This document shows, one piece after another, positions 12,402-56,801 of a stretch of 64,000 nucleotides of DNA. Below the pieces are notes generated by a model. It ran no database searches. It was not told the DNA's origin and saw only the letters and a program-made list of their open reading frames with translations. The DNA comes from an uncultured Planctomycetales bacterium (GTDB taxonomy: Bacteria; Omnitrophota; Gorgyraeia; Zapsychrales; JAHFFX01). The stretch's first letter is position 1; each line of letters starts with the position of its first letter. The stretch is taken from NCBI GenBank assembly GCA_964612665.1, contig CAZTCI010000001.1, forward strand, positions 380,896-444,895, in the 5' to 3' direction. Both the position numbers and the translations under genes were made by a program.

Positions 12402-12462
12402 AATTTTTTCCTTTCTTTTAACCAGCACAACTGGGCAACTGATAACTGGCAAACTAAAAAAC

Positions 12463-13439: not shown

Positions 13440-13712
13440 TTAACTTTTAAATCGTTCACCGATAAAATTCACGCCGATGACCAACTTTACAACGAATACT
13501 AATAAAATTTTGTCTTCAATCATATACAGGACTCGGTAATCACCACAACGCATTCGGTATTTTTCTTCACCACATAACTTTATACAATCTGAGGGACGAG
13601 GATTTTCGGAAAGGGCTGATATTTTTTCCAGAATCTTTTTAATATCCGAGGATGGGAGTTTCTTAATTTCTTTCGCCGCTGACTTCTTGATTTCAATTTT
13701 ATATCTTTCCAT
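13440..13712 (-). CDS. RelE/ParE-family type II toxin
   Basis: 90 aa; ...LSENPRPSDCIKL..EKYRMRCGDYRVLYMIEDKILLVFVVKL typical RelE/ParE C-terminal half; overlaps upstream antitoxin by 14 nt. Confidence 0.8.
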   Translation of the reverse strand: MERYKIEIKKSAAKEIKKLPSSDIKKILEKISALSENPRPSDCIKLCGEEKYRMRCGDYRVLYMIEDKILLVFVVKLVIGVNFIGERFKS

Positions 13713-13932
13713 CTTTTTTTAATTCTTTGAGAAGTTGTTCATAGGAGATGGACGATTCCTTACGACGATCGGCAAAGGCTTGAAGATCCTGCTGATCTTC
13801 CAACAATTCATGGCGAATAGCTTCATTGACCAAATCAGAAACGGAGCGGGATGTTTCTGCTGCTTTCAATTTAAGAATTTTATGCAGATGGGGATCGAGA
13901 TAAACAGTGGCGCGTTTAATAGGTTTAATCAT
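13699..13932 (-). CDS. ribbon-helix-helix (CopG/ParD-like) antitoxin
   Basis: 77 aa; ATVYLDPHLHKILKLKAAETSRSVSDLVNEAIRHEL RHH fold signature; upstream of RelE toxin. Confidence 0.75.
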   Translation of the reverse strand: MIKPIKRATVYLDPHLHKILKLKAAETSRSVSDLVNEAIRHELLEDQQDLQAFADRRKESSISYEQLLKELKKDGKI

Positions 13933-14004
13933 GAGGAAACCTCCTTTTGCCCAAGAATAGCAGTACAGCGTTATGACGTCAAGACGTTATTCTTGAGGCA
14001 AACC

Positions 14005-16409: not shown

Positions 16410-16634
16410 TTAGGCTTCTAAAAAGTCGCCGACTGAAATGCCAGCCTGTTTTAAGATCGCCCGCAATGTACCTTGCGGTATATCGCCTGGATGATTAGGA
16501 ATAGTTGTTCGTTTTCCAGTGGCAGGATTCCACCAGATTTCGTGACTGCCAGCGGCTTGCCGGTCAAATTCGAAACCTAATTGTCGTATTTTTTGAATTA
16601 CTTTACGATAATTGTAGCCTGCAAGTGTTCCCAT
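16410..16634 (-). CDS. hicA: HicA-family toxin
   Basis: 74 aa; GSHEIW....TTIPNHPGDIPQGTLRAILKQAGI matches HicA consensus. Confidence 0.85.
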   Translation of the reverse strand: MGTLAGYNYRKVIQKIRQLGFEFDRQAAGSHEIWWNPATGKRTTIPNHPGDIPQGTLRAILKQAGISVGDFLEA

Positions 16635-16879
16635 TAAGCAATTCCAACGGCGAGTGGCATATCAATCGACTTGATAATTTTATTTCTAATTTTGGCAGGG
16701 AGTTTACCTTCATGTTCACGATAAGATTCAATTAATTTGCGCGCAACATCGCGGGCAATTTCTAGAGTTTCATTAATTGTACGGCCTTGAGCAACTAAAC
16801 CAGGAAGTTCATTACTTGTCGCCAAATAATAACCTTCGGGAAGTTTCTCAAGATGTACAGAAAAAATTATTTCATTCAT
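16634..16879 (-). CDS. hicB: HicB-family antitoxin (start MNEIIF at 16879 with SD ggaggtg)
   Basis: YYLATSNELPGLVAQGRTINETLEIARDVARKLIESY = HicB/UPF0150 motif; 1-nt overlap with hicA. Confidence 0.8.
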   Translation of the reverse strand: MNEIIFSVHLEKLPEGYYLATSNELPGLVAQGRTINETLEIARDVARKLIESYREHEGKLPAKIRNKIIKSIDMPLAVGIA

Positions 16880-17408: not shown

Positions 17409-17475
17409 TTTTCCAGTTAACCAGTTTCCAGTTTACAAGTTTAGAAAATATCGAACTGGAGAACTGGCCAACTAA
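17409..17475. repeat. intergenic hairpin element with tandem ccagtt arms and complementary aactgg arms
   Basis: ttttccagttaaccagtttccagtttacaagtt...cgaactggagaactggccaactaa between BFN gene and nrdR. Confidence 0.7.
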
Positions 17476-17970: not shown

Positions 17971-18045
17971 TCAGTTTACCAGTTCTCCAGTTAACCAGTA
18001 ACCAGTCGATTTTCTAAACTGGCCAACTGGAAACTGGATAACTGG
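17971..18045. repeat. intergenic hairpin element, ccagtt x4 / aactgg x4 arms
   Basis: tcagtttaccagttctccagttaaccagtaaccagtcgattttctaaactggccaactggaaactggataactggctaa between nrdR start and glyA stop. Confidence 0.75.
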
Positions 18046-21036: not shown

Positions 21037-22326
21037 TTATATATTAACTTTCTTAAACGCCTTGGCGCCTATATCTCGTCTAAAAAAACATTTTTCAAAT
21101 GTAATGCGATCAACCGCCTTATAAGCGGTTTGAACAGCCTGTTCGATTGTTGAACCCAAACCTGTCACACCTAAAACCCGTCCGCCGGAAGTAACGATTT
21201 CTCCACCGACATTTTTAGTGGCAGCATGAAACACAATGGTGTCTGCAGATTCTTTAATATCACGCAATCCCTGGATTGTTTTTCCTGTTTCAAACGCCCC
21301 CGGATAACCGCCCGACGCCAAAACAACGCAGACACACCGGCGTTTGTCCCATTCCAACTGCATGCCGCTTAAATCTTCGTTGACGCTGGCCAGCATGATC
21401 TCAACCAAATCATTTTTAAACCGCGGAATAATGGCCTGAGTCTCAGGATCGCCAAACCGAACATTATATTCTAATACAAAAGGCCCGCGGTCGGTTAACA
21501 TTAATCCGGCGTAAAGAATCCCTTTAAACGTGTGTCCTTCCTCATCCATGCCGGCGATCGTCGGTTCAACAATGCGCGTTGAAATTTCTTTTAATAAATT
21601 CTTAGAAATGAGATTAGTCGGCGAATACGCACCCATGCCGCCGGTGTTAGGACCTAAATCGTCGTCAAAGATTCTTTTATGATCCTGCGCTGAATCAAGG
21701 ATCACAAAATCCTGCCCGTCGCTGGCAATCAGGATGGAAACTTCTTCGCCTTCTAAAAATTCTTCAATCACAACCCGGGCGCCCGCTTCTTTAAAAATTT
21801 TTTGTTCGAGCATCTGGCTGACAGCTTCCTTGGCTTCTTGAAAAGAATTGCAAATGATAACGCCTTTGCCGGCGGCGAGACCGTCGGCTTTAATGACAAC
21901 CGGATAATTCTTGGGCTTTAAAACCGCCAGGACACGTGCCGCGGCCTGCATATCCGTCACCACGTGAAATTCCGCCGTCGGAATATCAAAGCGTTTCATA
22001 AACTCTTTAGAAAAAACTTTGCTGCCTTCAAGCTGTGCCGCTTCTTTCGTCGGACCAAAAATTTTTAAGCCCGCCTTTTCAAATTGATTTACAATACCGG
22101 CCACCAGCGGCGCCTCCGGCCCAACGACGGTTAAATCGATTTTTTTTTCTTTGGCAAATTTGAGAAGCCCGGGAATGTCAGTTGCCTCTATCGCGACACA
22201 CTTCGCTTGCTGGGCCATCCCGGCGTTTCCCGACGCGCAGAAAATTTCTTTAACCAGCGGACTTTGGCTGATTTTCCAAACCAACGCATGTTCACGACCG
22301 CCGGAACCAATAACTAAAACTTTCAT
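21037..22326 (-). CDS. purD: phosphoribosylamine--glycine ligase
   Basis: 429 aa; ATP-grasp PurD full-length similarity. Confidence 0.95.
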   Translation of the reverse strand: MKVLVIGSGGREHALVWKISQSPLVKEIFCASGNAGMAQQAKCVAIEATDIPGLLKFAKEKKIDLTVVGPEAPLVAGIVNQFEKAGLKIFGPTKEAAQLEGSKVFSKEFMKRFDIPTAEFHVVTDMQAAARVLAVLKPKNYPVVIKADGLAAGKGVIICNSFQEAKEAVSQMLEQKIFKEAGARVVIEEFLEGEEVSILIASDGQDFVILDSAQDHKRIFDDDLGPNTGGMGAYSPTNLISKNLLKEISTRIVEPTIAGMDEEGHTFKGILYAGLMLTDRGPFVLEYNVRFGDPETQAIIPRFKNDLVEIMLASVNEDLSGMQLEWDKRRCVCVVLASGGYPGAFETGKTIQGLRDIKESADTIVFHAATKNVGGEIVTSGGRVLGVTGLGSTIEQAVQTAYKAVDRITFEKCFFRRDIGAKAFKKVNI

Positions 22327-22341
22327 TTCTAGAATTCCTTC

Positions 22342-23343
22342 TTATATAAATTTTATTTTCTGCTTGGAACCATCAACAACTTCCCCAATTTCCCAGCTCA
22401 AAAATCTATGCTTTTCAAGAAATCCTAAGACCCAGGGCGCATCCGTTCGAGAGACAACCAGCGCCAGGCCGATGCCCATATTAAATGTAGTAAACATGTC
22501 ACGCTCCAGGACATGGCCTTTCTTTTGAATCTTTAAGAATATTTCTGGAACCGGCCAGCTGGCTTTTTGGATTTGAAAACATTTTCCGTCTGGGACAATC
22601 TTGGTCAATTTTTCATAAAACGCGCCGCCGGTTATGTGAGCGATACCTTTCACCTTAAATTCTTCAAGCAAAGCCAAAACCGGTTTGACATAAATGCGGG
22701 TTGGTTCCAAAAGTTCGTTGGCATATTTTTTCTGCTCGCTTTTGGAGAAAACTTTACGGACAAGCGAATAGCCGTTGGAATGGATTCCGCTTGAGGCCAA
22801 ACCGATGATCCGGTCGCCGGTTTCAATTTTAGAACCGTCGATAATTTTTTCTTTTTCAACGACCCCGACGGCAAAGCCGGCTAAATCGTAGTCGTCACCT
22901 TTGTACATGCCTGGCATTTCGGCAGTTTCGCCGCCGATTAAACTGCAGCCCGCGAGTTTGCAGCCTTTGACAATTCCCGCCATGACATCATTCAAAATTT
23001 TTGTGTCCAATTTTCCGCAGGCAATGTAATCTAAAAAGAAAAGCGGCCGGGCGCCGGTGCACAGAACATCATTCACATTCATCGCGACCAAATCAATCCC
23101 AACTGTATCATGCTTGCCGACGAGATTTGCAATCAATAATTTTGTTCCAACTCCGTCGGTTGAAGAAACCAAAACTGGCTCTTTAAATTTTTCTTTAGAC
23201 AAAACGAAAAGCGCGCCGAAAGATCCTTTGCGTTTTAAAACTGCGGGATTGATTGTACGCGCGGCCATTTTGCGGATACCGTCGACGAAACGGTTGGCTT
23301 TGGTGATGTCGACGCCGGAGGATTTGTAGGTAATTTTCTTCAT
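22342..23343 (-). CDS. purM: phosphoribosylformylglycinamidine cyclo-ligase (AIR synthetase)
   Basis: 333 aa; MKKITYKSSGVDI...PurM. Confidence 0.95.
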   Translation of the reverse strand: MKKITYKSSGVDITKANRFVDGIRKMAARTINPAVLKRKGSFGALFVLSKEKFKEPVLVSSTDGVGTKLLIANLVGKHDTVGIDLVAMNVNDVLCTGARPLFFLDYIACGKLDTKILNDVMAGIVKGCKLAGCSLIGGETAEMPGMYKGDDYDLAGFAVGVVEKEKIIDGSKIETGDRIIGLASSGIHSNGYSLVRKVFSKSEQKKYANELLEPTRIYVKPVLALLEEFKVKGIAHITGGAFYEKLTKIVPDGKCFQIQKASWPVPEIFLKIQKKGHVLERDMFTTFNMGIGLALVVSRTDAPWVLGFLEKHRFLSWEIGEVVDGSKQKIKFI

Positions 23344-23400
23344 AATTTTGGTGATTTCGCCAGAGACGACCCATCAGGCCGTCTCTACAGACGGTTGTTG

Positions 23401-24222
23401 TTATCGATTATCATCTGGTTTCGGCGCTTTCGGCGGTGTGGTTTTTTCACGGAACCGATTCGCTTCCATAATCGGAATGTTTCCTTCGGTTGGAACATAA
23501 ATGACCTGCATATTGTTCCCCTGCAAACCGTTGATCCACAGATAACGCAAATAATTCTCGTCGATACTTCCAGAAATAATTTTATTACTTTTCGCCACCC
23601 CTTCGGCGCGGGCGACTTCGATTTCCGCGTCTTTTTTGGCTTTTTGCAATTCAAATTCTTTTTGAAGCGCTTCCTGCTCAGTTTTTAATTTCTGTTGAAT
23701 GCTGTAAGCAAACGCATCCGGTAAACGAACATCGCGCAGCAATACGTCCTGCACGTAAATACCTCTTTGATCGACTTTTTCTCTCAAGAATTCCAAAATC
23801 TTTTGCCCGATTTCTTTGCGTCCAGCTTCGGAAAAAAGCGCTTTGACTTCATAACCGCTGACCACGTTACGGACCGCTTCCCTAATATAAGGCTCTAACA
23901 CCGTCGCGACGTAATCCTGCCCGATGGTTTTGCGGACGAAGACCACTTTTTCCTTGGGAACATTGTACAGGACGGAAATATCCAGCGTCGAGATTAATCC
24001 TTCAGAAGACGGAACATTCGCGGTCTCTTTAAGCTGCTGCGTTTTTAGGTCCCACTTTTCAATCCAGCTAAAAACCGGAAAATACATGTGCCAGCCGGTT
24101 GCCAGCGCTTCGTCTTGGATCTTTCCAAAATCCGCTTTAACGCCGCTTTCACCGTCGTCGATTGTGACCATGCCGCATCCCGCTAAAAAGACCAAACTGA
24201 ACAAGACCATTAACCGTTTCAT
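23401..24222 (-). CDS. SPFH/Band-7 (prohibitin-like) lipoprotein
   Basis: 273 aa; lipobox LAGC; SPFH domain features and coiled-coil C-terminus. Confidence 0.7.
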   Translation of the reverse strand: MKRLMVLFSLVFLAGCGMVTIDDGESGVKADFGKIQDEALATGWHMYFPVFSWIEKWDLKTQQLKETANVPSSEGLISTLDISVLYNVPKEKVVFVRKTIGQDYVATVLEPYIREAVRNVVSGYEVKALFSEAGRKEIGQKILEFLREKVDQRGIYVQDVLLRDVRLPDAFAYSIQQKLKTEQEALQKEFELQKAKKDAEIEVARAEGVAKSNKIISGSIDENYLRYLWINGLQGNNMQVIYVPTEGNIPIMEANRFREKTTPPKAPKPDDNR

Positions 24223-24270
24223 TACCGTTCCTCCTTTAAGGAATTTTTCCCTAAATATAATTACCTCTTT

Positions 24271-24483
24271 TTACCCTACCAAAACATATTCCGAAATAGC
24301 CCTCGGTTTAGGAATAGGAAATCCATCTTCAATCAAACCTTTAATATGGTCATTAATGGCTTTATACATATTCTTTTCTGTCTGTTCAACGGTCTTACCG
24401 GTCGCAATGCAACCAGGTAAATCCGGTGAGTAAGCAGAATAATTTTTCTTGCTTTTTCAATAACAATAAAGGAATCGATACAT
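24271..24483 (-). pseudogene. hicB: hicB antitoxin gene disrupted by two frameshifts
   Basis: minus-strand frames read MYRFL(Y) / IVIEKARK / NYSAYSPDLPGCIATGKTVEQTEKNMYKAINDHIKGLIEDGFPIPKP (HicB consensus) in three frames; extra T in ttccttTattg and missing A in agaaaaatt relative to an intact frame. Confidence 0.6.
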
Positions 24484-24484
24484 A

Positions 24485-24700
24485 TCAATCCTCCGCCTTT
24501 AATCCTGCTTGCTTTAATACGCTATTTAATGTACCCGGAGCAATGTCATGCCCTGGATGTCCAGCAATGGTTACACGTCCAGATTTAAATCGATGCTTAT
24601 ACTGCCTATGGCTTCCTTTACTGGCCTTTTCTCTCCCAACGATAAGGTGTTCTATCATTCCCAGGGAGAAAAGGCCTAGTACTAGACTTTTGCAATGCAA
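24485..24700 (-). pseudogene. hicA: hicA toxin gene with its 5' region replaced or interrupted by an ~84-bp repeat element
   Basis: C-terminal 45 aa (SKGSHRQYKH...VTIAGHPGHDIAPGTLNSVLKQAGL) is classic HicA; first ~25 codons of the track ORF (TTG start) are encoded by the repeat element 24623-24705. Confidence 0.5.
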
Positions 24701-24705
24701 AAGTC
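24623..24705 (+). mobile_element. MITE/REP-like structured repeat, copy 1 (inverted copy at 51996-52079)
   Basis: 83 bp ~92% identical to the reverse complement of 51996-52079; contains 13-bp inverted repeat ggccttttctctc...gagagaaaaggcc plus palindromes tagtacta and acttttgcaatgcaaaagt. Confidence 0.7.
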
Positions 24706-24773
24706 AGTAATTCTGACTATATACCAACCATCGCGTTCAACCCGCCTGATAACATCTCTAATTTTTATGAATT

Positions 24774-25568
24774 TTATATGAACTTTTCTCGGACATAATT
24801 TATTCCATTCTCAAAAATCTTCGCTCCGTCGCCATATGTGCCTTTTGTTTCCAACCGCGTCCAAAACGGATGCTGGGTAAATAAAAAATGTCGCTCCGGA
24901 TGCGGCATCAAACCAAAGACCAAACCTGTTTCATCACAAATCCCGGCGATATCATCGACCGAGCCATTGGGATTTTCTGGATAAAAGGGTTCCCCTCCGT
25001 TTTCAGCGCAATAACGGAACACAACTTGGTTGTTAGTCTTTAATTTTTCTAAAATTTTTTTATTCTGTGGAACAAATTTTCCTTCACCGTGAGCCACCGG
25101 CAGAAAAATCGGCCGATTGATGCCTTTGGTCCAAATCGATTTTCCCGACGGCTTTAAATGAATCCAGCGGTCTTCGAATTTAGAAGAATCGTTTGTCATT
25201 AAAGTGACTTGCTGGGTGAATTGATTCTTGCCTTCAGCGCCGGGCAGAATACCGGCTTTGGTTAAAATCTGAAAACCGTTACAAATACCAATAATCGGTT
25301 TTTTCGCTTCAACGAATTGTTTGATCTGACCGCCTAACCGTAAACGCAATTCGTTGGCCAGAATTTTTCCGGACGCGATATCGTCCCCGTAGCTGAATCC
25401 GCCCGGGATCGCCAAGATATGATAATCCTTTAATTGCTTCCCGCCAGAAATTAATTCATTAATGTGGACCAAATCGACTTGCGCACCGAAATGCTCAAAA
25501 GCGAATTTTGTTTCTTGATCGCAATTGGTGCCCGCGGTTCTAATAATAATCACTTTAATTGTATTCAT
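24774..25568 (-). CDS. purQ: phosphoribosylformylglycinamidine synthase I (glutaminase subunit)
   Basis: class I GATase; likely start MNTIKVIIIRTAGTNCD at 25568 (alternatives 25577/25592); the 310-aa track ORF is a TTG-started over-extension through the GC-rich element. Confidence 0.85.
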   Translation of the reverse strand: MNTIKVIIIRTAGTNCDQETKFAFEHFGAQVDLVHINELISGGKQLKDYHILAIPGGFSYGDDIASGKILANELRLRLGGQIKQFVEAKKPIIGICNGFQILTKAGILPGAEGKNQFTQQVTLMTNDSSKFEDRWIHLKPSGKSIWTKGINRPIFLPVAHGEGKFVPQNKKILEKLKTNNQVVFRYCAENGGEPFYPENPNGSVDDIAGICDETGLVFGLMPHPERHFLFTQHPFWTRLETKGTYGDGAKIFENGINYVREKFI

Positions 25569-25613
25569 TTGATTCATATTATTAGAAGTCATCTCATAAA
25601 TGGTATTGAGCGG

Positions 25614-25733
25614 GCAGCGGGTGCACGGCGAGCCGATTGTGGGAGGAGCCCCCGGCCCGCCGTATCCGCTTGCCGGGGCGGGCACACCGGGCGGAGGGAC
25701 CCACAAACGGTTTGCCGTGACAGGACCCGCTGC
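25614..25733. other. GC-rich structured element B (possible ncRNA/riboswitch-like leader upstream of purQ), homologous termini to element A
   Basis: 120 nt, ~70% GC; termini GCAGCGGGTG...GACAGGACCCGCTGC form a 9-bp closing stem and match element A termini; internal stems (cacggc/gccgtg, ccggggcgggc/gcccgccccgg). Confidence 0.4.
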
Positions 25734-25771
25734 CTTCGCTATTTATGAGATACGTTCTAGTCTTTTATCTT

Positions 25772-25806
25772 AACTGGGTAACTGGAAACTGGCCGAACTG
25801 GCGAAC
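25772..25806. repeat. tandem aactgg repeat tract immediately downstream of purSL stop
   Basis: taactgggtaactggaaactggccgaactggcgaac (5 copies), same hexamer as the glyA-operon intergenic elements. Confidence 0.6.
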
Positions 25807-28716
25807 TTATAACGCCAATGGTTGCTTCCACGCGCTTTTTAAATCATCAATATACGCATTTACGTAAATTTTCTTATCAATTCCATAAATAACAAATTCC
25901 GACGAGGATTCAACCCGCCCGATTTGTCCAAAGGCAATTCCTTTTAATGTACTTTCAAATTCTTTCTGATGCGCCGGATCGACTTCAATGACAAACCGCG
26001 AGTTCGATTCTGAAAACAAAATAGCATCACTGCGGCCTTTTCCTTTAAAAGGAACTTTGTCTAAACGAACGGTCGCGCCTAATCCACCGGCAAAAGCCAT
26101 TTCCGCTAGCGTCACGCCGAGTCCGCCTTCCGAACAATCATGAATCGCACGCGCCAACCCTCGATCGACAATTTGGCTGACGGCCTGAAAGATTTTCTTG
26201 CCGCGGTTTGTATCAACCGTCGGAACCATTTGGCCTAACAAACCATACGTGTCCAAGTAAATCGACCCGCCCAGTTCTTCTCGCGTTTCCCCGATGACAT
26301 AAATAAAATTCTTCGGTTTTTTAAAATCCATGGAGACAACTTTACTCGCATCATCCAAAATTCCGATCGCTGAAATCAAAAGCGTGCCAGGGATCGCGAG
26401 TGATTTTCCATGTTCGGTATATTCATTATATAAACTGTCTTTTCCTGAAATAAACGGCACACCATACCCGATGGCAATTTTATAACACGCTTCCGCCGCG
26501 CGAACTAAACTTCCCAAACGGTCGGGTTTATCCGGGTTTCCCCAACAAAAATTATCCAGGATCGCAATGCGATCGAGCTTTCCTCCGACGGCAATAATCT
26601 GGCGAATCGCTTCATCAATGACCGAGGCCGCCATCCAATAAGGGTCGATCATCCCAAAACGGACATTGATTCCATTCGAAACCGCGATTGCTTTCAGGGA
26701 ATTTAACTTCGGCCGCAAGACCGCCGCATCCGACGGGCCTTCACAGTGAACGCCCACCAAAGGTTTCAAGACACTCGCGCCCTGAACTTCATGATCATAC
26801 TGGCGGATGACCCATTCTTTAGAACAAACATTATAATGACCTAACACCTCTAACAATTTCTTGGTTAACTCCGTCGGGGCGATCCATTTTTCTTTTTTTA
26901 ATTTTGGTGCTGTAAAAATGGCTTCTTTCGTGATCTGTGGAATCCCGCCGTGTAAAAACGCCATCGACAAATCCGAAACCTGAACGCCATTGTAAAAAAT
27001 TTCAAGCTGTTTTGTATCTGTAAATTGCCCAATGACGCTCGCTTCAACGCCTTCGTCGGCAAAAATTTTAGAAAGCTTGGCGATATTTTCTGGTGGGACG
27101 GCTAACACCATACGTTCCTGGGATTCTGAAATCCAAATCTCATGATATTTTAAGCCTTGATACTTAAGCGGAACTTTTTCCAACTCAACGCGACATCCGA
27201 GATGTTCGCCCATTTCTCCGACGGCGCTGGACAATCCACCCGCACCGCAATCCGTAATCGCCGAAAAAAGATTCTGATCACGCGCTTGCAGGAGAACATC
27301 CATTAATTTCTTTTCCTGAATGGGATTACCAATCTGCACCGCGCCGGATGAAATGACTTCGGAATCCTGGGTCAATTCTCCGGAAGAAAATGTCGCGCCG
27401 TGAATTCCGTCGCGTCCAGTACGTCCGCCAGCCACAACAACTAAATCACCCGTGCGCGCTTTTTTGTGCACGCGGTTGTTTGGAATCATGCCGACGTTGC
27501 CGCAAAAAACAAGCGGATTGCCAACAAACCGCCGGTCAAAAAGAATCGCGCCGTTGACCGTCGGGATTCCCATTTTATTTCCATAATCACGAACGCCGGC
27601 CACAACACCTTTCATGACGCGTTTGGGATGAAGCGTTCCGACGGGTAATTCTTTAAACGTCATTTCCGGCGGAGCAAAGCAAAAGACATCGGTGTTGCAC
27701 AAAGGCTTCGCACCTAAACCTGTTCCCAAGGAATCGCGGATAACGCCGCCGACGCCGGTATTAGCGCCGCCGAAAGGTTCTAAAGCTGAAGGATGATTAT
27801 GTGTTTCAACTTTAAAGGTGACATTGTCCTCGTCGTCAAACTCAATCACCCCGGCGTTATCGTAAAAAACTGAGACGCACCAGGGTTTGTCGATTTTTTG
27901 GGTGGCTTTGACGATTGTAGATTTTAAAAGATTTTTAATCAGACGCGTTTTTGTTTTGCCGCCGATTTTTTCTTGATAGCGGATGTTCCCGCGGAAAGTT
28001 TTGTGATGACAATGTTCGCTCCAGGTCTGGGCGATTGTTTCGAGTTCGCAGTCCGTCGGGTCGCGTTGGATTTGGCGGAAATGATTTTGAATGGTTTTCA
28101 TTTCGTTGAGATTCAAGAAAAGCTGGTCTTTTTGGCTAAGCTCTTGGAGCTCTCGATCGGAAGCTTCACGCAGTCTAACTAAAACAAGATCAAATTTATT
28201 GGAGGAAATGTTTGAAGGTGTCGAGGAGGTGACAGGCTTCATTTCCGACGAGACGACATGCTGGATCAATTTGTTGGCCAGAACACGGTTAACAATCGTT
28301 TCAAGCTCACGGTCAGAAACGCGGCCGTAGATAAAATATTTTTTCGCGGTACGAACCGCGCGCACTGATTGAATGCCGAGATCACGAATGCCTTTTAAAG
28401 TTGATTCTTCAACCGGATCCATGACGCCCGGGTTGTAAGCGATTTCAACGGTTTTTAAAGTCTTGGAAAAATTTTTCTGTTTGGCTAGGGTATCGGCTTT
28501 CCCACAAGTGTACACTTGAACAATTGGATCAACTAACAGTTCACGGCCGATTAAGTCTACCTGTTCAGCGGATAAATCCCCGTCGATAAGATAAACCGAC
28601 GTGACCTTGACTTCTTTAACTGAATCAATGCCAAGGTCAAGAATATCCTTGCGAACACTTTCGCCCGCAGCGTCAAAAATACCTTCTCTGTCTTTAACCT
28701 CAATCCGCCAGATCAT
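25807..28716 (-). CDS. purL: phosphoribosylformylglycinamidine synthase II with N-terminal duplicated PurS-like domains (PurS-PurS-PurL fusion)
   Basis: 969 aa; PurL AIRS/AIRS_C repeats, N-terminal ~220 aa with two PurS-like segments. Confidence 0.85.
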   Translation of the reverse strand: MIWRIEVKDREGIFDAAGESVRKDILDLGIDSVKEVKVTSVYLIDGDLSAEQVDLIGRELLVDPIVQVYTCGKADTLAKQKNFSKTLKTVEIAYNPGVMDPVEESTLKGIRDLGIQSVRAVRTAKKYFIYGRVSDRELETIVNRVLANKLIQHVVSSEMKPVTSSTPSNISSNKFDLVLVRLREASDRELQELSQKDQLFLNLNEMKTIQNHFRQIQRDPTDCELETIAQTWSEHCHHKTFRGNIRYQEKIGGKTKTRLIKNLLKSTIVKATQKIDKPWCVSVFYDNAGVIEFDDEDNVTFKVETHNHPSALEPFGGANTGVGGVIRDSLGTGLGAKPLCNTDVFCFAPPEMTFKELPVGTLHPKRVMKGVVAGVRDYGNKMGIPTVNGAILFDRRFVGNPLVFCGNVGMIPNNRVHKKARTGDLVVVAGGRTGRDGIHGATFSSGELTQDSEVISSGAVQIGNPIQEKKLMDVLLQARDQNLFSAITDCGAGGLSSAVGEMGEHLGCRVELEKVPLKYQGLKYHEIWISESQERMVLAVPPENIAKLSKIFADEGVEASVIGQFTDTKQLEIFYNGVQVSDLSMAFLHGGIPQITKEAIFTAPKLKKEKWIAPTELTKKLLEVLGHYNVCSKEWVIRQYDHEVQGASVLKPLVGVHCEGPSDAAVLRPKLNSLKAIAVSNGINVRFGMIDPYWMAASVIDEAIRQIIAVGGKLDRIAILDNFCWGNPDKPDRLGSLVRAAEACYKIAIGYGVPFISGKDSLYNEYTEHGKSLAIPGTLLISAIGILDDASKVVSMDFKKPKNFIYVIGETREELGGSIYLDTYGLLGQMVPTVDTNRGKKIFQAVSQIVDRGLARAIHDCSEGGLGVTLAEMAFAGGLGATVRLDKVPFKGKGRSDAILFSESNSRFVIEVDPAHQKEFESTLKGIAFGQIGRVESSSEFVIYGIDKKIYVNAYIDDLKSAWKQPLAL

Positions 28717-28867
28717 TTAATTGTGCCTAAAAATAATAACGGGCGTATTTATCATACGCCCTGTTTTTAAACCTGAAAATCATCTTATTCAAAACAACCA
28801 GGAATCCTTATGCGAAGGCGTTGTGCTGTATTTCTTGCGTCGACACTACAAAATGCATTAACAAACA

Positions 28868-29512
28868 CTATTGAACAATGCCCGCCGGGGAATTCGTATC
28901 TTCTTTTGCCTTATCCGTATCGCTCCATTGTACATCGTCGGGCGGGACAAATTTATCTTCTGGGATTTTAACATCGGTCTGAACATTATTGGCGATTTGT
29001 GTTATTTCGGTGCCGCCCTTCGTTTTTACCGTCATCTTTAAAGGAAGCGATCTCCAGACCCAAACTTTACCTTCGCCCACCTTCGATTCAAATATATCGC
29101 ACAATTTACCGTTAACCTTATCTGTTCCCAATTTTGTAAATTGCTTCGACCATTCTTTCTCGTCCGAAAAATTGGCTATGTCGTTTTCATCGCTTATAGG
29201 TTTCTTCATCCCCACATGCCGGTCCAAATCAACCATGTAAAATTCTTTATCGCTTTTTAAAAGTAATTTATTGGTCCAATTGTTTTTTTCACCGCTTTTC
29301 ATCTCGGTTTTAGAATAAGTCGCTTCGCGCTTGCCCCATTGATCGAAATAAGTTGTTATATTTATTTCTTCCGGAGGTTGGTTGACGGCATTGAAAGTCA
29401 TCTTATATTCAATGACACCGGATTCGAATTGATAACGATTATCTTGCGCATAAACGTTTCTGTTTGAAACCAGACAAACGATTGCAATAAAAAAAATTAA
29501 ATATTTCTGCAT
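28868..29512 (-). CDS. secreted hypothetical protein
   Basis: 214 aa; signal peptide (MQKYLIFFIAIVCLVSNRNVYA); embedded in pur operon. Confidence 0.5.
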   Translation of the reverse strand: MQKYLIFFIAIVCLVSNRNVYAQDNRYQFESGVIEYKMTFNAVNQPPEEINITTYFDQWGKREATYSKTEMKSGEKNNWTNKLLLKSDKEFYMVDLDRHVGMKKPISDENDIANFSDEKEWSKQFTKLGTDKVNGKLCDIFESKVGEGKVWVWRSLPLKMTVKTKGGTEITQIANNVQTDVKIPEDKFVPPDDVQWSDTDKAKEDTNSPAGIVQ

Positions 29513-29524
29513 GTTAGTTCAAGC

Positions 29525-30229
29525 TTACCGATTCACCCGGCTCAACACTTCTTGATAAGCCTCTTCAATATGCCCTAGATCCCGACGGAAACGGTCTTTG
29601 TCCATTCGCTCGCCAGTGCCGACTTCCCACAAACGACAGGTGTCTGGGGAAATTTCATCAGCTAGCACAATTTTATCTTTGAGTTTGCCAAATTCGATTT
29701 TGAAATCGATCAAATCCAAGTGGAGCATCAAAAAATATTCGGTAAGAAACGTATTGATTTTTAACGTATAACTGCGGATGGCGTCCATGTCTTCATCGGT
29801 CGCGAAACCTAATGCCCGGATATGCGTTTCGTTGACCAGAGGATCATTCATGGCATCATCTTTAAAACAAAATTCAATGATAGGGCACGTAAGCCTACGA
29901 CCTTCTTCCACTTTAAAGACCCGGCATAAAGAACCCGCCGCCACGTTGCGGACAATCACCTCAAGCGGAAACATCTGCACCTTTTTAACCAACACTTCGC
30001 ATTCACCAAGAACCCGCACGAAGTGTGTCGGAATGCCTTTTGTTTCCAAGTATTGAAAAACTTTCGCCGAGATCTGATTGTTGATCATCCCTTTATGCTG
30101 GATGACCCCGCGCTTGGCAGCGTTAAAACAAGTTGTTTCGTCTTTGAAATATTGGATGAGAAAATCAGGAGAATCGGTTGCGTAGACAATCTTGGCCTTA
30201 CCCTCATAAATCTTTTGGGTTTTTTCCAT
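29525..30229 (-). CDS. purC: phosphoribosylaminoimidazole-succinocarboxamide synthase
   Basis: SAICAR synthetase; likely start MEKTQKIYEGKAKIVY. Confidence 0.92.
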   Translation of the reverse strand: MEKTQKIYEGKAKIVYATDSPDFLIQYFKDETTCFNAAKRGVIQHKGMINNQISAKVFQYLETKGIPTHFVRVLGECEVLVKKVQMFPLEVIVRNVAAGSLCRVFKVEEGRRLTCPIIEFCFKDDAMNDPLVNETHIRALGFATDEDMDAIRSYTLKINTFLTEYFLMLHLDLIDFKIEFGKLKDKIVLADEISPDTCRLWEVGTGERMDKDRFRRDLGHIEEAYQEVLSRVNR

Positions 30230-30292
30230 AAGGTTTAGAACCCCGGATAAGCACACTCCGCCAGTGTTCCTCCGACGGACGTGAAGACCTTT

Positions 30293-31585
30293 TTAAAGCC
30301 CTAATTTTTTAAATATTCTATCGCGATATCTTGTGTAATATTTGATGTCAAAACACGCGTCGATCTCGCTGGTCTTTAAATATTTTCGAACCTTTCTGTC
30401 ACGGTTGAGAACATCGCGGAAGTCGGAGGTTTCCTGCCAGACTTGCATCGCACAATGTTGAATAATCGCATACGCTTCTTCACGCGTTAACCCTTTTTTC
30501 ATAAGCTCAAGTAAAACGCGCTGTGAATAAATCAATCCGCGGGTCTTGGCAATACTGGCGATCATGTTCTTAGGATACACCAAAAGCCCGTCGAGAAGCG
30601 GAATAAATTTATTTAACATATAATTCAAAATAATCGTGCTGTCGGGCAAAATCACGCGTTCCGCCGACGAATGACTGATGTCACGTTCATGCCAGAGGCT
30701 TATATTTTCCAAAGCGACCTGGGCATTCGCCCGCAAAACGCGTGATAATCCTGAAACTCTTTCGCAGGTAATCGGATTGCGCTTGTGCGGCATGGCGGAG
30801 GAACCTATTTGACCTTTAAAAAATGGTTCTTCAGCTTCCAAGACTTCGGTTTTTTGTAAAAGCCGGATTTCGGTGGCAAATTTATTTAAGGAAGATCCAA
30901 TCAAAGCGACTGTCGCGATGAATTGGCAGTGATGATCACGTTGGATAATTTGAGTGGCAACATTGGCAGGTTTTAAATTCAATTTTTCGCACACGTATTC
31001 CTCGACGTGTGGATCGATATTGGCATAGGTGCCTACGGCGCCGGATAATTTTCCAACACGGATATTTTCGCGTGCCTGCTCCATACGCTCTAAATTACGT
31101 TTGGTTTCATCGTACCAGACCGCGAGCTTCAAACCAAAGGTCGTAGGTTCAGCATGAACACCATGAGTTCGCGCGATGCAGACCGTGTCTTTATATTTTT
31201 TCGCTTTAATTTTTAAGACGTTTAAAAGTTTTTTTAAATCCGCGATAATAATATCACTCGCCTCGACGCACTGAATTGATAAAGCGGTATCCAAAAGATC
31301 AGAAGACGTCAAGCCCATATGGAGATAACGGGATTCTGGCCCTAAGTTCTCGCCCACATTTACAATAAAGGCAACAACATCATGTTTGGTTTTTTCTTCG
31401 ATTCTTTTGACTTCATCAATGTCGAACTTGGCGTTCTTACGGATTTTTTCCATGGCAGGCTTGGGGATAATCCCAAGTTTGGTCATTGCTTCACAGGCGA
31501 GAATTTCAATTTGCAGCATAATTTCCATCTTATGCTTTTCGGACCACACATTACCCATCTTCGAGAGCGTGTAACGATCAATCAT
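30293..31585 (-). CDS. purB: adenylosuccinate lyase
   Basis: 430 aa; fumarate-lyase signature GSSAMPHKRNP. Confidence 0.95.
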   Translation of the reverse strand: MIDRYTLSKMGNVWSEKHKMEIMLQIEILACEAMTKLGIIPKPAMEKIRKNAKFDIDEVKRIEEKTKHDVVAFIVNVGENLGPESRYLHMGLTSSDLLDTALSIQCVEASDIIIADLKKLLNVLKIKAKKYKDTVCIARTHGVHAEPTTFGLKLAVWYDETKRNLERMEQARENIRVGKLSGAVGTYANIDPHVEEYVCEKLNLKPANVATQIIQRDHHCQFIATVALIGSSLNKFATEIRLLQKTEVLEAEEPFFKGQIGSSAMPHKRNPITCERVSGLSRVLRANAQVALENISLWHERDISHSSAERVILPDSTIILNYMLNKFIPLLDGLLVYPKNMIASIAKTRGLIYSQRVLLELMKKGLTREEAYAIIQHCAMQVWQETSDFRDVLNRDRKVRKYLKTSEIDACFDIKYYTRYRDRIFKKLGL

Positions 31586-51969: not shown

Positions 51970-51995
51970 AGTTTTTAGACTTATAGCCTCCTACT

Positions 51996-52079
51996 GACTT
52001 TTGCATTGCAAAAGTCTAGTACTAGGCCTTTTCTCTCGGAGAATGATAGAACAACCTTATCTTTGGGAGAGAAAAGGCC
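51996..52079 (-). mobile_element. MITE/REP-like structured repeat, copy 2 (inverted relative to 24623-24705)
   Basis: 84 bp; reverse complement ~92% identical to 24623-24705; intergenic between OM barrel gene start and C39 peptidase gene stop. Confidence 0.7.
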
Positions 52080-52088
52080 AGTAATCAA

Positions 52089-52799
52089 TTAAAATTCACC
52101 CGTATGAATCGTCGTACTGATTACATCGGGAGTCATTATGCTACGCATTAATTTATAATCAACTGAAACAAAATCTTTTTCTGCAATCTTTAAAGCATAA
52201 TCACTATTTTTGTCTTCATGAGGTTTTTCAACCAATAATCCGATGCCATCCAGCCATAAATCTTGAAACTTATTAATTTTCATCGAGACATTACCGACGG
52301 CAGGGTCAGCGATAAAAACACGGTCAGCCATCACAGCTTTTACAATAACAAAATGGCGGTAATTCCTAAATTTAATGGGAACTAAAACCGGTTTATGCAG
52401 ATGGCGCAAAAAATCAATGTCCATCTTATAACCTGTCACATTATAACCTTTTTGTTTTGCATAAGTTTTTAAATCAAATAAAGAGAATCCCCGGCGTTCT
52501 TTAATTTTTGCTAACGGCACAACTTGCAGAAGTGAATTAATAATCTCACCTTCCGAAACTGGATCATTGAGATAATAATTTAACAGCGTTGAAAGTCCAG
52601 CAGCACCACAACTAAAATCCAGACTTTGCGTAACGATGTTTGTGCGTCGGATGTCGCGCAAGGGTTTGATGTCTTTGTTAATCCGGATTCCGAATGAAGA
52701 AAAACTAATAGCCCAACTAGAAGATGGAATTAAAGGAATTAGAAAAAGACTGAAAAGCAGGAAGAAATTTTTATGGGCCTTTGTGAAGCTACTATACAT
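52089..52799 (-). CDS. standalone periplasmic papain-like C39-family cysteine peptidase (FapD-like)
   Basis: 236 aa; signal peptide; catalytic Cys context DFSCGAAGLSTLLNYY, downstream His/Asp region typical of peptidase C39/C39-like. Confidence 0.7.
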   Translation of the reverse strand: MYSSFTKAHKNFFLLFSLFLIPLIPSSSWAISFSSFGIRINKDIKPLRDIRRTNIVTQSLDFSCGAAGLSTLLNYYLNDPVSEGEIINSLLQVVPLAKIKERRGFSLFDLKTYAKQKGYNVTGYKMDIDFLRHLHKPVLVPIKFRNYRHFVIVKAVMADRVFIADPAVGNVSMKINKFQDLWLDGIGLLVEKPHEDKNSDYALKIAEKDFVSVDYKLMRSIMTPDVISTTIHTGEF

Positions 52800-52918: not shown

Positions 52919-53971
52919 TTAAGGCTGAATTTGGAAGATAGAATAGTTACTCAGTTTAAGATCGTTTGAATTGTTTACATTACCAACTGTTGAATTCATC
53001 AATACCGTTAAATTGATCTGCACAGGTACAATGCTTCCAGCAGCATTGATATTAACAAAGGCGCTCAATTGTTGCTGCGCCGTATCGGTAACATTGACTG
53101 AGTTGATGCCGCCGCCCGTTGTTGAGAACGGTATCGGAATAACGTTATTGCCGCCACTATTAGCGACAGCAACTTTAAAATTACCTCCATGATTTGCAGC
53201 TAACACATCCAAAACATATGGCGAAGTTATGGCTGCCGGTGAAGTCGGCGTTGTCGGAGCGGCTGTCTGAGTGGGTACTGTTACATTAATGTTATTAGAT
53301 GGCGCCACTTGATTTGAAGTCGCTCCCGCTGCGTCGGCAGGTAAGGCAGAATTGGCCGCGACAACATTGGCTTGTGACGCTTGAGATGAAGCTGCATTTT
53401 GAGCAATTGATCCTGCTCCTCCTAATGGAGCACCAGAAGCTAATGATGAATCGGGAATATTTGTTGTTTCAGGTTTCATAATCCCAACTGTCTCGACGGG
53501 AGTAATAGGCACTTCAGGGCCTACGGTTACCGAAGGTGTCGCATGTGCAGAAAGTGGATTTTCTACATCTGTCAAGCTACTAGCTAAACTAGATGAGGGC
53601 AGTGAAGATCCAGCTGATGATGCTGATGACGCGTTAGATGGTGCTACTATATTTGTTGTATCGGCTCCGGCTGGGGATTTTGGAGACGTCGGCGTAGATA
53701 AGGACACTTTGACATTGGGATTATTAGTGTTCACTAAAAATGGATTGTTTTGAGTACCGAGTGTTACAGGACCTTTGGTAACACTATCCGCACTAGTACC
53801 CACCGAGCCAAGATAACTATCAAAATTAAAATTTAATCCTCCCGCGTGAATCTGGTCTAATTCATAATCGGAAAGAATAATAGCTTGACCCGCAAAAGCA
53901 TAAGAAATTTGAGATAACATAAGAACTGCGGTAAATCCTAAAGAAAATTTCTTTGACGCCATTTTTCTCAC
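52919..53971 (-). CDS. secreted Ala/Ser/Thr/Pro/Asn-rich protein with post-signal double-glycine-like motif (candidate fibre/amyloid subunit)
   Basis: 350 aa; Sec signal peptide (..ISYAFA|GQ), then ILSDYELDQIHAGG|LNF; C-terminal FVNINAAGSIVPVQINLTV motif related to paralogs. Confidence 0.6.
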   Translation of the reverse strand: MRKMASKKFSLGFTAVLMLSQISYAFAGQAIILSDYELDQIHAGGLNFNFDSYLGSVGTSADSVTKGPVTLGTQNNPFLVNTNNPNVKVSLSTPTSPKSPAGADTTNIVAPSNASSASSAGSSLPSSSLASSLTDVENPLSAHATPSVTVGPEVPITPVETVGIMKPETTNIPDSSLASGAPLGGAGSIAQNAASSQASQANVVAANSALPADAAGATSNQVAPSNNINVTVPTQTAAPTTPTSPAAITSPYVLDVLAANHGGNFKVAVANSGGNNVIPIPFSTTGGGINSVNVTDTAQQQLSAFVNINAAGSIVPVQINLTVLMNSTVGNVNNSNDLKLSNYSIFQIQP

Positions 53972-54028
53972 CTCTTCTCCGGCATTAGCTGTAATAGATT
54001 TTTACATTACTTTTTCAACTGGTACTAC

Positions 54029-54058
54029 AGTGGTGGGAGGAAAAATCCTCCCACCACT
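54029..54058 (-). terminator. intra-operon perfect hairpin between large repeat-protein gene and next subunit gene
   Basis: agtggtgggagg-aaaaat-cctcccaccact (12-bp stem). Confidence 0.5.
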
Positions 54059-54077
54059 TGAAGCTCAACGGCTTAGA

Positions 54078-56639: not shown

Positions 56640-56801
56640 TATTCACAACAATTGGGCGCTGAAAGATTCAGCATTAACCCGTTCTACTCAATATTACTTT
56701 GTTATTTTTTGTTATTGTGGTGGCGTTTATTACACCGCAGTCATATTCAAGCCACCTTCTTATCTCACCCCCCTTCTTGTTCTTTAGAAATATTCAAAAT
56801 A

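What the first reader, a model, noticed from the sequence alone, without database searches (positions are those of the whole stretch)
24271..24700. Decaying hicAB module inside the purine operon: hicB carries two homopolymer frameshifts and hicA is interrupted by the repeat element
HicB consensus peptides are readable only by switching frames twice. The frames give MYRFL / IVIEKARK / NYSAYSPDLPGCIATGKTVEQTEKNMYKAINDHIKGLIEDGFPIPKP. The cause is an extra T at ~24469 and a missing A at ~24440 in an A-run. The adjacent hicA keeps a perfect catalytic C-terminus (GSHRQYKH...HDIAPGTLNSVLKQAGL) but its N-terminal 25 codons come from the MITE-like element. Either both genes are dead (toxin inactivated first, antitoxin then drifting) or these are sequencing errors in homopolymers. 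An intact hicAB exists at 16410-16879 for comparison. The module is inserted between band-7/purM and purQ, interrupting an otherwise canonical pur operon.
Basis: seen in the sequence. Interest (0 to 1): 0.55.

Follow-up and report, generated by a model that had tools for sequence, protein, structure and literature searches.

The report
Dead hicAB toxin-antitoxin remnant in pur operon
A small toxin-antitoxin gene pair lodged between two purine-synthesis genes of an uncultured Omnitrophota bacterium is recently dead (a mobile mini-element and a lost start codon in the toxin, two one-base slips in the antitoxin), which is ordinary genome decay.

Summary
On the minus strand, 24271-24768 carries a hicA-hicB pair wedged 5 nt after the purQ stop.

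- **hicB (24483-24271):** it reads as a 70-aa HicB only after removing one T (TTT, 24468-70) and adding one A (A-rich stretch, 24443-50). The repaired protein aligns end to end at 77% identity with intact HicBs.
- **hicA:** it is split by an 87-nt two-hairpin repeat (24621-24707) flanked by TA. Removing 89 nt restores a gap-free 64-aa HicA (Pfam 3e-23).

The original 20 N-terminal hicA codons still lie upstream of the element (24768-24709). The codon where every homologue has Met is ATA, and no in-frame canonical start exists.

The frameshifts are unlikely to be errors. Two independently assembled public contigs are identical across them, and 314 A/T runs of 5 or more in the window's long ORFs are all in frame.

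In related Omnitrophota, purQ either abuts purM directly or is separated from it by other toxin-antitoxin genes, including intact orphan hicB genes. The junction is therefore an insertion hot spot.

The repeat has a second TA-flanked copy at 51994-52081 and no match elsewhere. It is probably a lineage-specific MITE.

Verdict: a real, ordinary, recently decayed toxin-antitoxin module of low interest.

The parts
24708..24768 (-). hicA 5' fragment. ATA sits at the Met position (24768-24766), followed by codons 2-20 and the first base of codon 21. It starts 5 nt after the purQ stop.
   Evidence: Translation. Alignment to 12 intact HicA proteins that all start MK(I/V)R. No in-frame ATG/GTG/TTG lies between the upstream stop and this codon (read).
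24621..24707 (-). 87-nt non-coding repeat (MITE-like) made of two tandem hairpins. It is flanked by TA at 24709-24708 and 24620-24619.
   Evidence: Pairwise alignment with the second copy. RNA fold -41.9 kcal/mol, z -6.2. Excising 89 nt restores gap-free HicA. Logan contigs break inside hairpin 1.
24485..24618 (-). hicA 3' fragment: codons 21-64 including the invariant G22-S23-H24, with stop TGA at 24487-24485.
   Evidence: Pfam HicA_toxin 1.6e-15 on the raw ORF and 3e-23 on the repaired protein. PDB HicA 4c26 and 6g26 at 1e-10.
24271..24483 (-). hicB pseudogene. It has +1 T in the TTT at 24468-24470 and -1 A in the A-rich stretch 24443-24450. A premature TGA follows after 8 codons.
   Evidence: Pfam HicB_lk_antitox 7.2e-12 after repair. 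PDB HicB3 4p78 at 5.7e-8.
51994..52081 (+). Second copy of the repeat. It is intergenic between two minus-strand genes, in the opposite orientation relative to transcription, and TA-flanked.
24774..25577 (-). purQ, the upstream neighbour. Its C-terminus is conserved up to the last residue.
   Evidence: Pfam GATase_5 2.3e-77. The NCBI-called 267-aa product P0245 is 100% identical. C-termini compared.
23401..24222 (-). Band-7/SPFH lipoprotein gene, the downstream neighbour. It is also a lineage-specific insert in the operon.
   Evidence: Pfam Band_7 1.1e-32. Orthologues in relatives lie away from pur genes.
22342..23343 (-). purM, which in uninterrupted relatives directly follows purQ.
   Evidence: Pfam AIRS and AIRS_C. 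Synteny in L043 and L047.

Best explanation
A horizontally acquired type II hicA-hicB cassette was inserted immediately after purQ, in the purQ-purM junction of an Omnitrophota genome. It is of the short 64-aa toxin / 70-aa antitoxin subfamily. The cassette is now a pair of young pseudogenes.

**Shown:**
- hicA has lost its start codon (ATG to ATA).
- hicA is split between codons 20 and 21 by an 87-nt two-hairpin mobile repeat. Including the TA, this shifts the frame by 89 nt.
- hicB carries two one-base slippage indels 20-25 nt apart, which create a stop after 8 codons.

**Inferred from how type II toxin-antitoxin systems work:** the toxin was disabled first, by the start-codon change or by the insertion. 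Only then could the antitoxin drift without killing the cell.

**Inferred from sequence:** all residues invariant among intact homologues are still present in both genes, so the decay is recent.

**Inferred for the repeat:** it is most likely a lineage-restricted MITE that duplicates a TA target, as IS630/Tc1-mariner-type elements do. The remnant is probably just co-transcribed passenger DNA of the pur operon.
For: - **Family.** The repaired HicA hits Pfam PF07927 at 3e-23. The repaired HicB hits PF15919 at 7.2e-12.
- **Homologues.** Thousands were found, with the best at 77-81% identity over 95-100% of the query and lengths of 61-71 aa.
- **Alignments.** There is no gap at the excision point, and 'MYRFLIVIEKA' matches the consensus in the frameshifted stretch. 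32 invariant columns are kept in HicA and 34 in HicB.
- **Indels.** The DNA alignment shows just one extra and one missing base.
- **Architecture.** The same hicA-then-hicB order occurs in the closest intact loci L055, L045 and L053.
- **Independent assemblies.** Logan contigs from SRR12313479 and SRR12313480 are identical to the window over 11,291 and 6,163 nt. This includes both frameshifts and the right MITE junction.
- **Assembly quality.** 25 ORFs of at least 300 aa cover 39,660 nt and hold 314 A/T runs of 5 or more with no frame break.
- **Genetic code.** TGA ends 10 long ORFs, so it is a stop codon here.
- **Insertion.** Relatives L043 and L047 have purQ directly followed by purM. The closest HicA and HicB homologues sit in unrelated contexts.
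- **Repeat.** The second, TA-flanked copy is in the opposite orientation.
Against: - Raw reads were not inspected. The public contigs come from the same sample series as the genome, so a minority intact allele or a MITE-free allele cannot be excluded.
- The left MITE junction and the ATA codon are not covered by any independent contig.
- ATA can serve as a very weak start codon in some bacteria.
- The order of the lesions cannot be resolved from one sequence.
- The MITE class rests on two copies and a weak terminal inverted repeat. No transposase was found.
Confidence: 0.85

Rival explanations
1. The two hicB frameshifts are consensus or assembly errors in homopolymers. On this reading hicB is an intact orphan antitoxin, like those in relatives L041 and L048, next to a MITE-killed hicA.
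For: - Both indels lie in homopolymer runs and have opposite signs, so correcting them restores a perfect HicB.
- Two relatives keep an intact orphan hicB at the same junction.
Against: - Separately assembled contigs from two runs carry both indels.
- The runs are short (T3, A5).
- 314 A/T runs of 5 or more in 39.7 kb of long ORFs are all in frame.
Confidence: 0.05
2. The locus is still expressed through recoding. This would need a +1 slip at CUU-U, then a -1 slip on the A-run in hicB, and removal of the 89-nt structured insert from the hicA mRNA.
For: - CTT-T resembles the prfB +1 shift site (from memory).
- The insert folds stably: -41.9 kcal/mol, z -6.2.
Against: - None of the listed homologues needs recoding. 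All are single ORFs of 61-97 aa.
- hicA has no start codon even if the insert were removed.
- The same insert occurs in antisense orientation in an intergenic spacer.
- No Rfam intron or ribozyme family matches.
Confidence: 0.01
3. The 87-89-nt repeat is not a TA-duplicating MITE. Instead it is a hairpin-ended derivative of an IS200/IS605-type element (PATE) or a REPIN, inserted 3' of a TAC target without duplication.
For: - The element consists of two separate subterminal hairpins rather than one long terminal inverted repeat.
- Both copies are preceded by TAC.
- The terminal inverted repeat is weak: CTGAC versus CTGGC, then about 11 of 17 bases.
Against: - Excision under that model gives R-I-T-G-S-H, replacing K21, which is at least 90% conserved. 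The TA-duplication model gives R-I-K-G-S-H.
- Both copies have TA on both sides.
Confidence: 0.12

Closest known systems
HicAB type II toxin-antitoxin systems (E. coli HicAB; Burkholderia pseudomallei HicAB, PDB 4c26/6g26; Yersinia pestis HicA3B3, PDB 4p78)
   Same: - A HicA_toxin domain with the conserved G-S-H motif, and a HicB N-terminal partial RNase-H-like domain.
- Toxin gene first, antitoxin second, 1 nt apart.
   Different: - Both genes are inactivated here.
- This HicB subfamily is only about 70 aa. It covers profile positions 1-64 of 123 and therefore lacks the C-terminal DNA-binding domain of the 140-aa HicBs (4p78 is 143 aa).
Orphan or degraded toxin-antitoxin loci, as catalogued in Klebsiella (PMC7192599)
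   Same: That paper reports abundant antitoxins without a functional toxin and interprets them as degrading TA pairs. Relatives L041 and L048 show exactly such orphan hicB genes at the same junction.
   Different: In this window the antitoxin has also decayed, and the toxin remnant is still recognisable.
Bacterial TA-duplicating MITEs (Correia/NEMIS of Neisseria, RUP of Streptococcus pneumoniae, IS630-derived MITEs). These comparisons are from memory.
   Same: Short (about 90-150 nt), non-coding, strongly folding, several copies, TA at both ends, able to land inside genes.
   Different: - Two tandem hairpins rather than one long inverted repeat.
- Very weak terminal repeats.
- No sequence match in 185,579 species genomes for the hairpin-1 core, or in JGI metagenomes for either hairpin.
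- No partner transposase identified.

Membership tests
HicAB type II toxin-antitoxin module | Toxin with a HicA (PF07927) domain, including the conserved catalytic His in the G-S-H motif | tested here: met
   Pfam 3e-23 over profile positions 2-58 of 58 after excision. G22, S23 and H24 are invariant in the alignment. The query His aligns with the Ala position of PDB 4c26; from memory, 4c26 is the H24A mutant.
HicAB type II toxin-antitoxin module | Adjacent antitoxin with a HicB N-terminal domain (PF15919) | tested here: met
   Pfam 7.2e-12 after repairing the two indels. 77% full-length identity to annotated HicB proteins.
HicAB type II toxin-antitoxin module | Two small co-oriented genes forming one operon, toxin upstream | tested here: met
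   hicA stop at 24487-24485 and hicB ATG at 24483. The same order is seen in L045, L053 and L055.
HicAB type II toxin-antitoxin module | HicB C-terminal DNA-binding (RHH/HTH) domain for autoregulation | tested here: not met
   The 70-aa protein covers only profile positions 1-64 of 123. All close homologues are also about 70 aa, so this is a feature of the short subfamily and not a result of decay.
HicAB type II toxin-antitoxin module | Intact, translatable reading frames (a functional module) | tested here: not met
   hicA has ATA at the Met position and an 89-nt insertion. hicB has a +1 and a -1 indel with a stop after codon 8.
HicAB type II toxin-antitoxin module | Toxin arrests growth and the antitoxin neutralises it | not testable with these tools
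   This needs expression of repaired and native alleles.
MITE (IS630/Tc1-mariner type) | Short, non-coding, present in several copies | tested here: met
   87-88 nt. Two copies in 64 kb, 94% identical. No further copies were found outside the window.
MITE (IS630/Tc1-mariner type) | TA target-site duplication | tested here: met
   TA lies on both sides of both copies. The empty site reconstructed from the HicA alignment needs exactly element + TA removed and keeps the conserved K21.
MITE (IS630/Tc1-mariner type) | Terminal inverted repeats matching an autonomous element's ends | tested here: inconclusive
   The ends are CTGAC and CTGGC, with about 11 of 17 matches allowing one gap (read). The tested window ORFs include no transposase.

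The most novel reading that the evidence does not exclude
The purQ-purM junction may be a conserved landing pad for toxin-antitoxin cassettes in one Omnitrophota clade. If so, the intact orphan hicB genes that two relatives keep there are domesticated, for example as anti-addiction factors or as part of pur operon expression. This genome would then show the terminal stage of one decay series, helped by a previously undescribed two-hairpin MITE family.
Probability: 0.12. Interest if true: 0.4.

Novelty: new member of a known kind. Interest (0 to 1): 0.15.

Why it matters
**Annotation.** The locus should be labelled as two pseudogenes plus a repeat, not as a 71-aa 'HicA' and small hypothetical ORFs.

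**Toxin-antitoxin turnover.** It gives a clean, datable snapshot. The toxin was hit twice, the antitoxin slipped twice, and there is no amino-acid erosion yet. Relatives sit at other stages: no insert, an orphan antitoxin, or other cassettes.

**Assembly.** The small repeat breaks short-read assemblies, which is useful to know when binning this lineage.

None of this changes current understanding of HicAB or of MITEs.

Tried and rejected
- **Repeat in public genomes.** An exact scan with the hairpin-1 core found 0 hits in one genome per GTDB species.
- **Repeat in metagenomes.** Scans of JGI metagenome contigs with hairpin-1 and hairpin-2 patterns both found 0 hits. There were also no hits in the 40 loci fetched up to that point.
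- **Repeat-derived ORFs.** A 30-aa repeat-encoded peptide was searched against 1.84 billion representative proteins to detect ORFs spanning other copies. It found 0 hits.
- **Rfam.** Nothing passed gathering thresholds on the whole window. A permissive scan of 24200-25900 gave only chance-level miRNA and sRNA matches.
- **TGA as a sense codon.** Rejected, because TGA terminates 10 long ORFs.
- **Programmed frameshifting or an intron-like insert.** Rejected; see the rival explanations.
- **Orthology of the window hicB with the orphan hicBs of L041 and L048.** Unresolved. Identities are 70% and 66%, lower than to unrelated-context homologues at 77%. The upstream DNA similarity is weak.
- **Independent cover of purQ and the left MITE junction.** Look-ups of two purQ start variants found no record. 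The purSL contig stops at the GC-rich hairpin.
- **Sequencing platform.** The run accessions appear in no paper of the library.
- **Promoter and terminator scan of 24100-25900.** Nothing above the shuffle expectation.

Full report
**What is in the sequence**

All genes from 19.9 to 31.6 kb lie on the minus strand. The order, with Pfam support, is:
- purB (30293-31585) and purC (29525-30256)
- a small gene with a sub-threshold DUF4412 match (28868-29512; 19.6 bits against a cut-off of 21.6)
- the purS-purL fusion (25807-28716) and purQ (24774-25577)
- the flagged stretch
- a band-7/SPFH lipoprotein gene (23401-24222)
- purM (22342-23343), purD (21037-22326), and sua5/LMWPc

**hicB**

hicB starts at ATG 24483 and, as written, stops after MYRFLYCY. 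I removed one T from the TTT at 24468-24470 and added one A to the A-rich stretch GCAAGAAAAATT (24441-24452). This gives a 70-aa protein.
- The protein hits Pfam HicB_lk_antitox at 7.2e-12.
- It matches 5,630 database proteins, the best at 77% identity over 100% of its length.
- In the alignment, the repaired stretch MYRFLIVIEKA-KNYSAYSPDLPGC matches the consensus almost residue for residue. All 34 invariant columns are kept.
- A nucleotide alignment with five intact hicB genes shows one extra and one missing base at exactly these places and no other indel.

**hicA**

The listed 71-aa ORF (24700-24485) begins inside a repeat, and only its last 44 codons are HicA. The genuine first 20 codons are still present at 24768-24709, in a different frame.
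- Removing 89 nt (the 87-nt element at 24621-24707 plus one TA) joins the two parts into a 64-aa protein.
- This protein hits Pfam HicA_toxin at 3e-23 over the whole profile.
- It aligns without any gap to 12 intact 61-67-aa HicA proteins (73-81% identity by BLASTP; 72-78% in the alignment), and G22-S23-H24 are kept.
- All of those proteins start MK(I/V)R. Here the first codon is ATA, and no ATG, GTG or TTG lies in frame between the upstream stop and this point.

PDB searches tie both repaired proteins to solved HicA (4c26, 6g26) and HicB (4p78, 6g1n) structures.

**Real lesions or errors?**

The evidence favours real lesions.
- The exact band-7 protein is encoded on four public contigs. The two fetched, Logan assemblies of runs SRR12313479 and SRR12313480, are identical to the window over 11,291 and 6,163 nt.
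- Both of those contigs start inside hairpin 1 of the repeat, so they contain both hicB indels and the right junction of the insertion.
- The window itself is clean. 25 ORFs of at least 300 aa (39,660 nt) contain 314 A/T runs of 5 or more without a single frame break.
- The stop-codon counts (TAA 38, TGA 10, TAG 10) show a standard code.

I could not inspect reads. No independent contig covers the left junction or the ATA codon.

**The repeat**

- A second copy lies at 51994-52081 on the plus strand, in a 119-nt spacer between two minus-strand genes. It is therefore in the opposite orientation relative to transcription. It is 94% identical.
- Both copies are bounded by TA on each side.
- The element folds into two tandem hairpins (-41.9 kcal/mol, z -6.2) and has only a weak terminal inverted repeat.
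- The empty site implied by the HicA alignment fits a TA duplication, which keeps the nearly invariant K21. It fits an insertion after TAC without duplication less well.
- It matches no Rfam family.
- Its hairpin-1 core is absent from one genome per GTDB species. Both hairpin cores are absent from JGI metagenomes. A repeat-encoded peptide is absent from 1.84 billion protein representatives.
- No transposase was found among the window ORFs I scanned.

I read it as a lineage-restricted MITE, most likely of the TA-duplicating kind. Its class remains open.

**Context in relatives**

The organism is an uncultured Omnitrophota bacterium. The best band-7 matches, at 61-75% identity, are Omnitrophota genomes, and the source contig is 779 kb.

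Neighbourhoods of purQ homologues at 68-71% identity show the following between purQ and purM:

| Locus | Between purQ and purM |
|---|---|
| L043, L047 | nothing; purM follows directly |
| L048 | an intact 70-aa hicB with no hicA |
| L041 | an MNT-HEPN pair, a purQ 3' remnant, a lipoprotein gene, then an intact orphan hicB overlapping the purM start |
| L049 | a Fic gene |

The junction is therefore a recurrent insertion site.

Two further points on context:
- The band-7 gene is also an intruder. Its orthologues in about 30 Omnitrophota genomes have no pur or hic gene within 8 kb.
- Whether the window's hicB is orthologous to the orphan copies is unresolved. The closest HicA and HicB homologues sit in unrelated contexts, and one identical HicB is paired with different upstream genes. 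That fits a mobile cassette.

**Mechanism**

- *Shown:* the family membership of both remnants, the four lesions, the exact insertion, and the insertion into an operon that is uninterrupted in some relatives.
- *Inferred from established type II toxin-antitoxin biology:* an antitoxin can only be lost after the toxin is disabled. The start-codon loss or the MITE insertion therefore came first, and the hicB slippage indels followed under relaxed selection.
- *Inferred from sequence:* no conserved residue has yet changed in either gene, so the decay is recent.
- *Inferred from anatomy:* the truncated HicA fragment lacks the N-terminal helix and any good translation start, so it is very unlikely to be toxic. 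The remnant is probably transcribed passively with the operon. hicA starts 5 nt after the purQ stop, and no promoter or terminator signal exceeds the shuffle expectation.

**Comparison, novelty and verdict**

This is a member of the HicAB family by sequence and architecture, but not a functional one. Its HicB belongs to the short subfamily without a DNA-binding domain. Degraded toxin-antitoxin pairs and orphan antitoxins are well documented (PMC7192599), and MITE insertions into genes are common. The only new items are an undescribed small repeat family and a local insertion hot spot.

Noticed in passing
window 25606-25745 (-), in the 229-nt purSL-purQ spacer: A GC-rich (about 74%) imperfect hairpin of about 135 nt, in a genome of 43% GC. 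Its RNA fold is -85.9 kcal/mol, z -6.1. It is unique in the window and matches no Rfam family. A Logan contig ends at it. In four relatives (L041, L043, L047, L048) a LOG (Lysine_decarbox-like) gene occupies this position.
   Followed up: partly
window 12429-12449(-), 17421-17441(+), 18017-18037(-), 25772-25792(-): Arrays of 4-5 tandem CCAGTT units at about 7-nt spacing, found at four mostly intergenic sites. Two of them lie just after the purSL and glyA stops. There are 4 matches against 0.01 expected by chance. This may be a protein-binding or regulatory repeat.
   Followed up: partly
L041:7510-8582 and L048:5001-6049: Two related Omnitrophota carry an intact orphan hicB (70 aa) between purQ and purM, with no hicA. 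L041 also has an MNT-HEPN pair and a leftover copy of the purQ 3' end (NNGAKIFENGV). In L048 purQ is extended by 14 codons that run up to hicB.
   Followed up: partly
window 21037-31585 compared with L041, L043, L047, L048, L049: The window's pur cluster lacks LOG (present in L041, L043, L047 and L048) and purE (present in all five relatives examined). Neither is found anywhere in the 64 kb by tblastn. The band-7 gene is found next to pur genes only in this genome.
   Followed up: partly
window 13440-13935 and 16410-16879: More toxin-antitoxin pairs are embedded in the same housekeeping gene array. One is RHH-ParE. The other is an antitoxin-first pair whose toxin is HicA (6.6e-21) and whose 81-aa partner has no Pfam hit.
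   Followed up: partly
L051-L054: One identical 71-aa HicB (P0121) is paired with HicA on one contig and with a DUF2283 protein on three others. This suggests partner swapping in this antitoxin subfamily.
   Followed up: no
window 53400-56640 (-): Long ORFs of 350 and 853 aa contain 144-nt tandem repeats and Ser/Ala-rich low-complexity sequence. They lie downstream of a C39 peptidase gene (52089-52799).
   Followed up: no
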